DNA of 64,000 bases from Escherichia coli. GTDB taxonomy: Bacteria; Pseudomonadota; Gammaproteobacteria; Enterobacterales; Enterobacteriaceae. The stretch lies in NCBI RefSeq assembly GCF_003334405.1, contig NZ_QOWM01000003.1; one strand, given 5' to 3'. Both the position numbers and the translations under genes were made by a program. The notes under the pieces were generated by a model, which worked only from the letters and a program-made list of their open reading frames with translations, ran no database searches and had not been told where the DNA came from. This document shows, in pieces, positions 40,346 through 42,023 of the stretch (positions within the stretch are counted from its first letter, which is position 1; every line of letters begins with the position of its first letter).

Positions 40346-40521
40346 TCAGGAACGTTCGGATGAAAATTGATCCTTTCCAGGCTTAGACCAGGATGGCGGG
40401 ATGGGCAATCTCCATTCTCACAGTGAAACGTAACGTACTGAAAACGGGTGAACAATATTTAATGAAATTTTGAGAAAAGCCCGTTATGTTAACGGAAAAT
40501 TATGTTAAAGCAGGAAATGTT

Positions 40522-41052
40522 ATGGAAAATAAATATTCAAGGTTACAAATCAGCATTCACTGGCTGGTCTTTTTACTGGTTATCGCAGCGTATTGCGCAA
40601 TGGAGTTTCGTGGTTTCTTCCCACGTAGCGATCGGCCACTCATCAACATGATTCATGTTTCCTGTGGCATCTCAATTCTCGTGCTGATGGTCGTTCGTCT
40701 TTTGTTAAGGCTGAAATACCCAACCCCGCCGATTATACCTAAGCCAAAACCGATGATGACGGGACTGGCGCATTTGGGACATTTGGTGATTTATCTCCTG
40801 TTTATTGCGCTGCCAGTGATTGGTTTGGTGATGATGTATAACCGGGGCAACCCGTGGTTTGCGTTTGGTTTGACGATGCCTTACGCTTCAGAGGCCAATT
40901 TCGAACGGGTAGATAGCTTAAAGTCGTGGCATGAAACGCTGGCGAATCTGGGATATTTTGTCATCGGGTTGCACGCTGCGGCTGCACTGGCACACCACTA
41001 TTTCTGGAAGGACAACACACTTCTACGCATGATGCCGCGTAAACGTTCCTGA
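40522..41052 (+). CDS. cybB: cytochrome b561
   Basis: 176-aa form from ATG 40522 (MENKYSRLQISIHWLVF...); SD aggaaa; transmembrane His ligands. Confidence 0.9.
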   Translation: MENKYSRLQISIHWLVFLLVIAAYCAMEFRGFFPRSDRPLINMIHVSCGISILVLMVVRLLLRLKYPTPPIIPKPKPMMTGLAHLGHLVIYLLFIALPVIGLVMMYNRGNPWFAFGLTMPYASEANFERVDSLKSWHETLANLGYFVIGLHAAAALAHHYFWKDNTLLRMMPRKRS

Positions 41053-41062
41053 AGGATATTTA

Positions 41063-41126
41063 AAGAAAACGCCTGTACTAAAACCGACCCGTGGTACAGG
41101 CGAAGAATACGGGTCTACATCGGAAG
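41063..41126 (-). ncRNA. rydC: Hfq-dependent small RNA RydC
   Basis: 64-nt minus-strand segment CUUCCGAUGUAGACCCGUAUUCUUCGCCUGUACCACGGGUCGGUUUUAGUACAGGCGUUUUCUU in the cybB-ydcA intergenic region, ending in a stem (CCUGUAC/GUACAGG) plus U-tract. Confidence 0.6.
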
Positions 41127-41296
41127 CGCCTATTATATTTATTTGTATGATAAATAAAACCATAATCCTTGCCCATACGTCCATCTGGCTTATTTTTAAT
41201 CAATTCACCCGATCTTTGATCTCATCAACGGTATCAAAATAAACCAGCGTATAACGTTCAAATCGAACATAAGATTCGATAAACCATGGAGGTTAT

Positions 41297-41470
41297 ATGA
41301 AAAAACTGGCACTTATTTTGTTTATGGGAACGCTTGTTTCCTTTTATGCCGATGCCGGGCGCAAACCCTGTTCTGGTTCGAAAGGGGGGATCTCACACTG
41401 TACGGCAGGCGGCAAATTTGTCTGTAATGATGGTTCTATTAGTGCATCGAAAAAAACATGCACTAACTGA
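41297..41470 (+). CDS. ydcA: small secreted Cys-containing protein
   Basis: 57-aa ORF MKKLALILFMGTLVSFYADA|GRKPCSGSKGGISHCTAGGKFVCNDGSISASKKTCTN with signal peptide and RBS ggagg; too short for the ORF track. Confidence 0.7.
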   Translation: MKKLALILFMGTLVSFYADAGRKPCSGSKGGISHCTAGGKFVCNDGSISASKKTCTN

Positions 41471-41541
41471 AGTGTAAAAGGGGTGCCATGAGAAAATGAA
41501 TCTGCTAGTCAAATGCGCGGGGAAAATCCCCGCGCTTGCCC

Positions 41542-41738
<197 letters not shown>

Positions 41739-41749
<11 letters not shown>

Positions 41750-41794
41750 TCGTTGGCCTCGGTTGATAGAAATATCGGTCGGGGCCTTCGTCTT
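41739..41794 (+). ncRNA. sokB: Sok-type antisense RNA (antitoxin of hokB), approximate extent
   Basis: Plus-strand promoter-like TTGCCG-N17-TAAGAT (41703-41731) inside mokB would start a transcript near 41738 antisense to the mokB start region; 3' end not resolved. Confidence 0.4.
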
Positions 41795-42023
41795 TCTGAT
41801 TCCCGGTTAGCCTGAAAACAGAAAGTCTCAGGCACCCGCAGGCATCCTATGAGGTTTCCTTAGGGACGAAAATAATCACTTCACGAAATTGCGTGCTGTT
41901 TTCCAGAATTTTTCGTCATTCGGGTTAGCCAGTTTAGCCATTCGTTACTCTCTTCATTCCAATAGCATTAATTTTCTATGCAATAATTGTTGTAAAAATG
42001 TGACGCAAAGAGGTTTTTGGTCA

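What the first reader, a model, noticed from the sequence alone, without database searches (positions are those of the whole stretch)
41063..41126. RydC small RNA in the cybB-ydcA intergenic region
A 64-nt minus-strand sequence matching my recollection of RydC lies just downstream of cybB and ends with a GC stem (CCUGUAC/GUACAGG) plus U-tract. It is invisible to ORF-based annotation.
Basis: partly seen in the sequence, partly recalled or inferred. Interest (0 to 1): 0.4.

Follow-up and report, generated by a model that had tools for sequence, protein, structure and literature searches.

The report
RydC small RNA gene, confirmed

Summary
Confirmed and already known. Window 41063-41126 (minus strand) matches the Rfam RydC model (RF00505) end to end at 92.5 bits, against a gathering score of 48 (E = 5e-17). 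It is base-for-base the rydC gene (b4597) annotated in E. coli K-12 MG1655, which lies tail to tail with cybB and divergent from ydcA. The window is K-12-like, with one mismatch in 4,001 bases. The 64-mer is single-copy in 5,412 of 5,426 complete E. coli genomes.

All defining features I could test are present:
- an invariant single-stranded 5' seed
- conserved UU steps in both loops
- a 3' U-rich tail
- a perfect TATAAT box placed 5 bases upstream of the start
- the neighbouring cybB gene

The seed pairs over 10 bp with the cfa mRNA leader, right at the published RNase E site. I also placed a 14/15 match to the published YieP motif in the promoter spacer (-29 to -15). That fits the published finding that YieP represses rydC.

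Nothing is new except that minor operator placement. Interest is low.

The parts
41063..41126 (-). rydC gene: the 64-nt RydC small RNA. The K-12 annotation extends it one U further, to 41062.
   Evidence: Rfam RF00505 at 92.5 bits vs gathering score 48, model positions 1-64. Identical to b4597 of NC_000913.3.
41115..41126 (-). 5' single-stranded seed (RNA nt 1-12, CUUCCGAUGUAG) that base-pairs with target mRNAs.
   Evidence: Unpaired in the Rfam consensus structure. nt 1-12 are invariant in 7 distinct homologs. nt 3-12 form a 10-bp duplex with cfa mRNA -108..-99, dG -15.2 kcal/mol, reached by 6 of 1000 shuffles. Published C4G / cfa G101C compensatory mutants support the pairing (PMC6755755).
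41109..41115 (-). Pseudoknot stem 1, 5' arm (nt 12-18, GACCCGU).
   Evidence: Paired in the Rfam consensus. 7/7 sequences are paired at six of the seven pairs, and 6/7 at U18-A35. One pair shows a one-sided A-U to G-U change.
41086..41092 (-). Pseudoknot stem 1, 3' arm (nt 35-41, ACGGGUC). The outer A11/G42 position is an A.G mismatch in this allele and A-U in most relatives.
41094..41101 (-). Pseudoknot stem 2, 5' arm (nt 26-33, GCCUGUAC).
   Evidence: Minimum-free-energy fold. Three pairs show two-sided compensatory changes.
41071..41078 (-). Pseudoknot stem 2, 3' arm (nt 49-56, GUACAGGC). Together with the tail it also serves as the terminator stem.
41063..41070 (-). 3' tail GUUUUCUU(U): terminator U-tract and the part that contacts the proximal face of Hfq.
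   Evidence: Read directly from the sequence. In the crystal structure the poly-U 3' end sits in the proximal groove of Hfq (PMC4337610).
41132..41137 (-). -10 box TATAAT of the rydC sigma-70 promoter, at -11..-6 relative to the start at 41126. There is no recognisable -35 box.
   Evidence: Sequence. Invariant in 7 homologs. PMC11340327 reports the same: a perfect -10 and no obvious -35. The generic promoter scan missed it because it requires a -35 match.
41141..41155 (-). Probable YieP operator: ATTTATCATACAAAT, the core of the palindrome TTATTTAT-CAT-ACAAATAA (41139-41157). It sits at -29..-15, inside the promoter spacer.
   Evidence: 14/15 match to the reverse complement of the published YieP ChIP-exo motif atTTGTaTGAcaAAT (PMC7642389). 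It is the only match in the window at <=1 mismatch, with 0.02 expected. The match is 15/15 in E. albertii, E. whittamii and two non-Escherichia loci, inside an almost invariant -34..-6 block with divergent flanks. That YieP binds this site is inferred, not shown.
40522..41052 (+). cybB (cytochrome b561 / superoxide oxidase), the conserved convergent neighbour. It is context, not part of the RNA.
   Evidence: A CybB homolog lies next to rydC in all 8 related loci examined.
41297..41470 (+). ydcA (57-aa periplasmic protein), the divergent neighbour in E. coli. It is context only.
   Evidence: Detected beside rydC in only 2 of the 8 related loci.

Best explanation
This is the rydC gene, which encodes the 64-nt Hfq-dependent small RNA RydC.

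Transcription: it starts at window 41126 on the minus strand, from a sigma-70 promoter with a perfect TATAAT box and no -35 box. The GntR-family repressor YieP keeps the promoter off under standard conditions. YieP most likely binds the palindrome in the promoter spacer (-29..-15); that step is inferred.

Fold: the RNA forms an H-type pseudoknot (stem 1, nt 12-18 with 35-41; stem 2, nt 26-33 with 49-56). This leaves the first ~11 nucleotides single-stranded as a seed. The RNA ends in a U-rich tail that docks on the proximal face of Hfq.

Action: with Hfq, the seed pairs with the long 5' leader of cfa mRNA at about -108..-99. That raises cyclopropane fatty acid synthase production, by masking an RNase E site and, according to the most recent work, mainly by reducing premature Rho-dependent termination. 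Weaker repressive targets have also been reported (csgD, yejABEF, pheA, trpE).

Shown here: the family match, identity to the annotated gene, covariation in the pseudoknot, seed-cfa complementarity, conservation of the promoter and palindrome, and synteny. Taken from the literature: expression, Hfq binding, the regulatory outcomes and YieP repression.
For: - Family match: full-length Rfam RF00505 hit at 92.5 bits vs gathering score 48.
- Identity: 100% identical to annotated rydC b4597 in the same cybB/ydcA/hokB/trg context.
- Distribution: single copy in 5,412 of 5,426 complete E. coli genomes.
- Homologs: Escherichia species and two more distant metagenome loci all score 73-91 bits and lie next to a cybB homolog.
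- Stem 2: 7/7 sequences paired at every pair present in all seven, with three two-sided compensatory changes (U-A to C-G, A-U to G-C, C-G to U-A).
- Stem 1: one A-U to G-U change.
- Other conserved features: the seed, U23U24 and U46U47 are invariant.
- Target pairing: seed-cfa duplex of 10 bp at -108..-99, abutting GG|AUUAU, reached by 6 of 1000 shuffles.
- Promoter: the TATAAT box and the YieP-motif palindrome are conserved while the flanks diverge.
- Literature: pseudoknot, Hfq crystal structure and stability (PMC4337610); cfa activation with compensatory mutants and the RNase E site (PMC6755755); Rho mechanism (PMC12691595); YieP repression with Northern blot (PMC11340327); csgD repression (PMC3985669).
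Against: No result speaks against the identification. Three limits apply. First, no expression data can be examined for this window. Second, nested-fold energy is not better than shuffles (z = -0.48), which is expected for a pseudoknot. Third, the covariation rests on only 7 distinct sequences in two clades, so the three compensatory pairs may reflect few independent events. The published literature disagrees on how much RNase E protection and Rho anti-termination each contribute. The generic promoter scan did not call the real promoter.
Confidence: 0.98

Rival explanations
1. The element is only the transcription terminator or 3' end of the convergent cybB gene, read on the + strand, and makes no independent minus-strand RNA.
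For: It begins 10 nt after the cybB stop codon. The stem 2 inverted repeat can fold on either strand.
Against: On the + strand the hairpin is followed by GAAGAAUAC, which is not a U-tract. The covariance model hits the minus strand only. The most conserved part is the 5' seed plus a TATAAT box and palindrome oriented for minus-strand transcription; these lie beyond the hairpin and would be irrelevant to a cybB terminator. Published Northern blots detect RydC.
Confidence: 0.01
2. The region encodes a small protein on the minus strand (mechanical ORFs 41023-41184, 53 aa, and 41078-41203, 41 aa), and the RNA-family resemblance is secondary.
For: Two minus-strand ORFs overlap the element.
Against: Both ORFs start upstream of the transcription start at 41126, inside the promoter. 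The non-Escherichia homologs carry two separate 1-nt insertions in the loops, which would shift any reading frame between them, yet they preserve base pairing through compensatory changes. That conservation pattern is RNA-like, not codon-like. The only AUG inside the RNA (nt 7-9) is followed directly by UAG.
Confidence: 0.005
3. It is a RydC-like sequence that has decayed into a non-functional relic in this strain.
For: The outer stem 1 position is an A.G mismatch in this allele, and one operator half-site carries G to A compared with sister species. RydC is barely detectable under standard laboratory conditions.
Against: This exact allele is the K-12 allele on which the functional studies were done: cfa activation, the Hfq complex and yieP de-repression. 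It occurs at >=99% identity in 4,064 genomes. Low expression is explained by YieP repression.
Confidence: 0.005

Closest known systems
RydC sRNA of E. coli K-12 (rydC, b4597; Rfam RF00505)
   Same: It is the same gene. The 64 nt are identical, and the strand, neighbours (cybB, ydcA, hokB/sokB, trg), seed, pseudoknot, U-tail and promoter all match.
   Different: Nothing differs within the RNA. The curated K-12 record extends the 3' end by one U, to window 41062. The window as a whole differs from MG1655 by one base in 4,001 (40380, G vs A), which lies outside the gene.
RydC of non-Escherichia enterobacteria (Salmonella-type allele; here the metagenome loci L056 and L057)
   Same: Same seed, stem 1, UU loop steps, tail, TATAAT box, palindrome and adjacent cybB.
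   Different: The inner three pairs of stem 2 are swapped (UAC/GUA to CGU/ACG) and the stem has one extra pair. The loops carry 1-nt insertions, making the RNA 66 nt. The operator core is a perfect 15/15 motif match, against 14/15 here. Position 42 is U, so it forms an A-U pair, where K-12 has an A.G mismatch.
ArrS and CpxQ, other Hfq-dependent sRNAs acting on the cfa leader
   Same: Both use 5'-proximal seeds on the long cfa 5' UTR. ArrS binds a site overlapping RydC's and also activates cfa (PMC6755755).
   Different: They have unrelated sequences and loci and no pseudoknot. CpxQ is processed from the cpxP 3' UTR and represses cfa. Neither is a member of the RydC family.

Membership tests
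RydC (Rfam RF00505) | Scores at or above the curated gathering threshold of the family covariance model over its full length. | tested here: met
   92.5 bits vs 48, E = 5.2e-17, model positions 1-64 of 64, not truncated.
RydC (Rfam RF00505) | Conserved single-stranded 5' seed CUUCCGAUGU at the very 5' end. | tested here: met
   Present at nt 1-10 and unpaired in the consensus structure. Invariant in 7 distinct homologs. That invariance is partly forced, because both collection scans required CTTCCGATGT.
RydC (Rfam RF00505) | H-type pseudoknot: stem 1 (nt 12-18/35-41), and stem 2 (nt 26-33/49-56) with its 5' arm inside the stem 1 loop. | tested here: met
   All pairs form in the window sequence, except the outer A11.G42 position. 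Across 7 sequences, stem 2 has three two-sided compensatory pairs and is 100% paired. Stem 1 has one A-U to G-U change. The sample is small and spans two clades. The fold is confirmed by the crystal structure in PMC4337610.
RydC (Rfam RF00505) | Conserved UU steps in both pseudoknot loops (U23U24 and U46U47) that contact the Hfq rim. | tested here: met
   Present in the window and invariant in 7 homologs. Their role in RNA stability is from PMC4337610.
RydC (Rfam RF00505) | Rho-independent terminator ending in a U-rich tail. | tested here: met
   Stem 2 is followed by GUUUUCUU(U). The generic terminator scan did not report it, because the 15-nt loop exceeds its 3-8 nt limit.
RydC (Rfam RF00505) | Genomic location next to cybB, in convergent orientation. 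| tested here: met
   cybB ends at 41052, 10 nt from the RNA's 3' end. A CybB homolog is adjacent in all 8 related loci. The same is reported in PMC11340327.
RydC (Rfam RF00505) | Seed complementarity to the long cfa 5' UTR at the RNase E site. | tested here: met
   10-bp duplex, RydC nt 3-12 with cfa -108..-99, dG -15.2 kcal/mol, reached by 6 of 1000 shuffled UTRs; it is immediately 5' of GG|AUUAU. The cfa leader was taken from NC_000913.3, because cfa lies outside the window.
RydC (Rfam RF00505) | Binding to Hfq and Hfq-dependent stability. | not testable with these tools
   Literature only: pull-downs, half-life measurements and the crystal structure (PMC4337610).
RydC (Rfam RF00505) | Expression as a discrete ~64-nt transcript from the mapped start site. 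| not testable with these tools
   No expression data are available for the window. A Northern blot in a yieP deletion of K-12, which carries the identical allele, is reported in PMC11340327.
YieP (GntR/FadR-type) regulon promoters | An operator matching the ChIP-exo palindrome atTTGTaTGAcaAAT and overlapping the promoter. | tested here: met
   14/15 match at 41141-41155 (-29..-15). It is the only hit in 64 kb at <=1 mismatch, with 0.02 expected, and it is conserved. Actual occupancy of this site by YieP was not tested here.

The most novel reading that the evidence does not exclude
The only part not already written down in the papers I read is the base-pair placement of the YieP operator. It is a palindrome in the rydC promoter spacer (-29..-15) that would block RNA polymerase directly. 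E. coli carries a G-to-A change in one half-site, where E. albertii, E. whittamii and more distant relatives keep a perfect motif. That change could alter how tightly rydC is repressed in E. coli. The RNA itself offers no novel reading.
Probability: 0.6. Interest if true: 0.1.

Novelty: already known. Interest (0 to 1): 0.04.

Why it matters
As a discovery it does not matter. RydC has been known since the early-2000s sRNA screens. It has an Rfam family, a crystal structure with Hfq, mapped targets and an identified repressor. The value of this check is quality control. It shows the first-stage reader can recall and place a 64-nt non-coding gene to the exact base and strand. It also shows that routine PGAP annotation leaves this gene unlabelled in the E. 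coli genomes sampled (12 of 12 rows). Biologically, RydC links envelope and redox signals (YieP, FnrS, OmrB) to membrane lipid cyclopropanation and acid resistance.

Tried and rejected
1. Folding energy as a test. The minimum-free-energy fold of the 64-mer is no better than shuffles (z = -0.48). I rejected this as uninformative, because the fold is a pseudoknot.

2. Generic promoter/terminator scan. It reported a TGGGCA-17-TATCAT site that would place the start about 14 nt too far upstream. It missed the real TATAAT box (no -35 match) and the real terminator (loop too long). It also flagged an alternative small hairpin at 41087-41101 that competes with the pseudoknot. I did not use any of these calls.

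3. Genome-collection scan with CTTCCGATGT-N11-CTTCGCC. Of the 53 hits, 47 were chance matches at 21-35 of 64 identities, and only 6 were real, all Escherichia. Other genera were missed because their loop 1 is one base longer.

4. Metagenome scan designed to exclude the E. coli allele. It gave only 4 loci, 2 of them non-Escherichia. That was enough to see compensatory changes but too few for statistics.

5. MAFFT placed the stem 2 gap so that the arms were out of register. I re-registered the alignment by hand and counted pairs in a script rather than using count of structure pairs.

6. I looked for YieP ChIP-exo peak coordinates in the supplement of PMC7642389. None are held, so occupancy of the palindrome remains inferred.

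7. A full-length RydC-cfa duplex prediction gave an implausible 60-nt interaction that ignores intramolecular structure. I discarded it in favour of the seed-only duplex.

8. The coding, cybB-terminator and relic readings were considered and rejected (see rival explanations).

Full report
**Observation.** The minus strand of window 41063-41126 reads CUUCCGAUGUAGACCCGUAUUCUUCGCCUGUACCACGGGUCGGUUUUAGUACAGGCGUUUUCUU. A scan of the whole 64-kb window against all 4,227 Rfam families at gathering thresholds returned two hits. One is RydC (RF00505) at exactly these coordinates and on this strand. It covers model positions 1-64 of 64 at 92.5 bits against a gathering score of 48, E = 5.2e-17. CCUGUAC is RNA nt 27-33 and GUACAGG is nt 49-55, followed by CG-UUUU-C-UU. 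The minimum-free-energy fold forms that stem.

**Identity and context.**
- A 4,001-base stretch of NC_000913.3 (E. coli K-12 MG1655) aligns to the window with a single mismatch, at window 40380 (G vs A).
- In that record rydC (b4597, 'small regulatory RNA RydC') is annotated at the position corresponding to window 41062-41126, minus strand. It is identical in sequence and one U longer at the 3' end.
- cybB occupies 40522-41052 (+), so the two genes converge with 10 nt between them.
- ydcA (41297-41470, +) is divergent from rydC. hokB/mokB/sokB and trg follow.
- The 64-mer is present once in 5,412 of 5,426 complete E. coli genomes, at >=99% identity in 4,064 of them.
- In all 12 sampled PGAP-annotated records nothing is annotated under the match.

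**Structure.** Rfam annotates only stem 1 (nt 11-18 with 35-42). This is the published RydC fold, seen in the Hfq co-crystal (PMC4337610). That explains why nested folding energy is unremarkable (z = -0.48).

To test the fold independently I collected homologs.
- One genome-collection scan gave six Escherichia loci among 47 chance hits.
- One metagenome scan, built to exclude the E. coli allele, gave four loci, two of them from outside Escherichia.
- All eight of these loci that I submitted to Rfam were confirmed as RydC, at 73-91 bits.
- CybB homologs (83.6-94.4% identity) are adjacent in all eight, with only a partial match at the contig edge in L056.

In a hand-registered alignment of the 7 distinct sequences, stem 2 is paired in every sequence at every pair. 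Three consecutive pairs change on both sides: U-A to C-G, A-U to G-C, and C-G to U-A. Stem 1 shows one A-U to G-U change. Its outer position is an A.G mismatch in the K-12 allele and A-U in most of the others. The seed (nt 1-12), U23U24 and U46U47 are invariant. The sample is small and falls into two clades, so this is supporting evidence rather than a statistical proof. The seed's invariance is also partly forced by the search patterns.

**Mechanism.** The cfa gene lies outside the window, so I fetched its leader from NC_000913.3. RydC nt 3-12 form a 10-bp duplex (nine Watson-Crick pairs and one G.U) with cfa -108..-99. The energy is -15.2 kcal/mol, reached by 6 of 1,000 shuffled leaders. The duplex ends directly at the GG|AUUAU RNase E cleavage site. 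This reproduces the published interaction, which was verified with RydC C4G / cfa G101C compensatory mutants and an 18-fold activation of the long-isoform fusion (PMC6755755). Later work attributes most of the activation to reduced Rho-dependent termination in the cfa leader, with only a minor RNase E contribution (PMC12691595). Repression of csgD by pairing at its translation initiation region, with Hfq-assisted opening of stem 1, is also reported. So are effects on yejABEF, pheA and trpE (PMC3985669; PMC6755755; PMC11340327).

**Promoter and regulation.** A perfect TATAAT box sits at 41137-41132, 5 nt upstream of the start. There is no recognisable -35 box, as published (PMC11340327), and the generic scan therefore missed the promoter.

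Between them lies the palindrome TTATTTAT-CAT-ACAAATAA (41157-41139). Its core, ATTTATCATACAAAT (41155-41141, -29..-15), matches the reverse complement of the published YieP ChIP-exo motif atTTGTaTGAcaAAT at 14 of 15 positions (PMC7642389). It is the only such match in the window at <=1 mismatch, with 0.02 expected.

Across Escherichia species and the two more distant loci, the block from about -34 to -6 is almost invariant while the sequences on either side diverge. The core is a perfect 15/15 match everywhere except in E. coli.

YieP represses rydC 20-fold in E. coli, and RydC is detectable on Northern blots only in a yieP deletion (PMC11340327). In the sections of that paper I read and the terms I searched, no operator is mapped. 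Placing it in the spacer is my inference. It is a small refinement, not a discovery.

**Rivals.**
- A + strand cybB terminator is unlikely. No U-tract follows the hairpin on that strand. The most conserved parts (seed, -10 box, palindrome) lie beyond the hairpin and are oriented for minus-strand transcription.
- The two mechanical minus-strand ORFs start upstream of the transcription start. The 1-nt loop insertions seen in distant homologs would shift their reading frames, while base pairing is compensated.
- A decayed relic is excluded, because this exact allele is the one studied functionally in K-12.

**Verdict.** The feature is already known and fully ordinary for an E. coli genome. Interest is very low.

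Noticed in passing
window 41686-41837 (-), compared with annotated sokB at window 41739-41795 (+): The Rfam 'sok antitoxin' model RF01794 hits the minus strand (109.7 bits) and ends in the hokB start codon. It therefore covers the hokB/mokB mRNA leader rather than the strand on which K-12 annotates the SokB antisense RNA. A strand call taken from this Rfam family would mislabel the antitoxin.
   Followed up: partly
window 41139-41157 (-): The palindrome TTATTTAT-CAT-ACAAATAA in the rydC promoter spacer matches the published YieP ChIP-exo motif at 14/15 positions. Sister species and more distant relatives have a perfect 15/15 match. In what I read of the paper showing that YieP represses rydC, no operator is mapped.
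   Followed up: yes
window 41223-41231 and 41244-41247 (seen in L061 and L060): Some E. coli strains carry an IS element in the rydC-ydcA spacer. L061 has IS1 with target duplication CATCAACGG. L060, strain JW-5, has IS5 (1,195 bp) with duplication CCAG. The insertions lie 97-118 bp upstream of the rydC start and 50-66 bp upstream of the ydcA ATG. They leave the rydC core promoter intact but probably affect the ydcA promoter. IS481-family insertions were also listed in this region but not mapped.
   Followed up: partly
L028 1742-2389 and L039 1135-1783: E. coli E69 and E. whittamii carry two tandem hok/sok copies beside rydC, where this window has one.
   Followed up: no
window 40380: This is the single difference from MG1655 in the 4,001 bases compared (G here, A in MG1655 and in strain JW-5). 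It lies in the gapC-cybB spacer. Several non-K-12 isolates match the window at 100% over 40400-41900, a query that does not include position 40380. The window may therefore come from a close relative rather than from the MG1655 reference itself.
   Followed up: partly
window 41063-41126 (search of E. coli genomes): Five of the 5,412 rydC matches lie on records typed as plasmids, and 14 complete genomes lack a match altogether.
   Followed up: no
window 41118-41123 (-), RNA nt 4-9 region (AUG at nt 7-9, UAG at nt 10-12): The seed contains a minimal start-stop (AUGUAG). No Shine-Dalgarno sequence is apparent upstream. This is probably coincidental.
   Followed up: no
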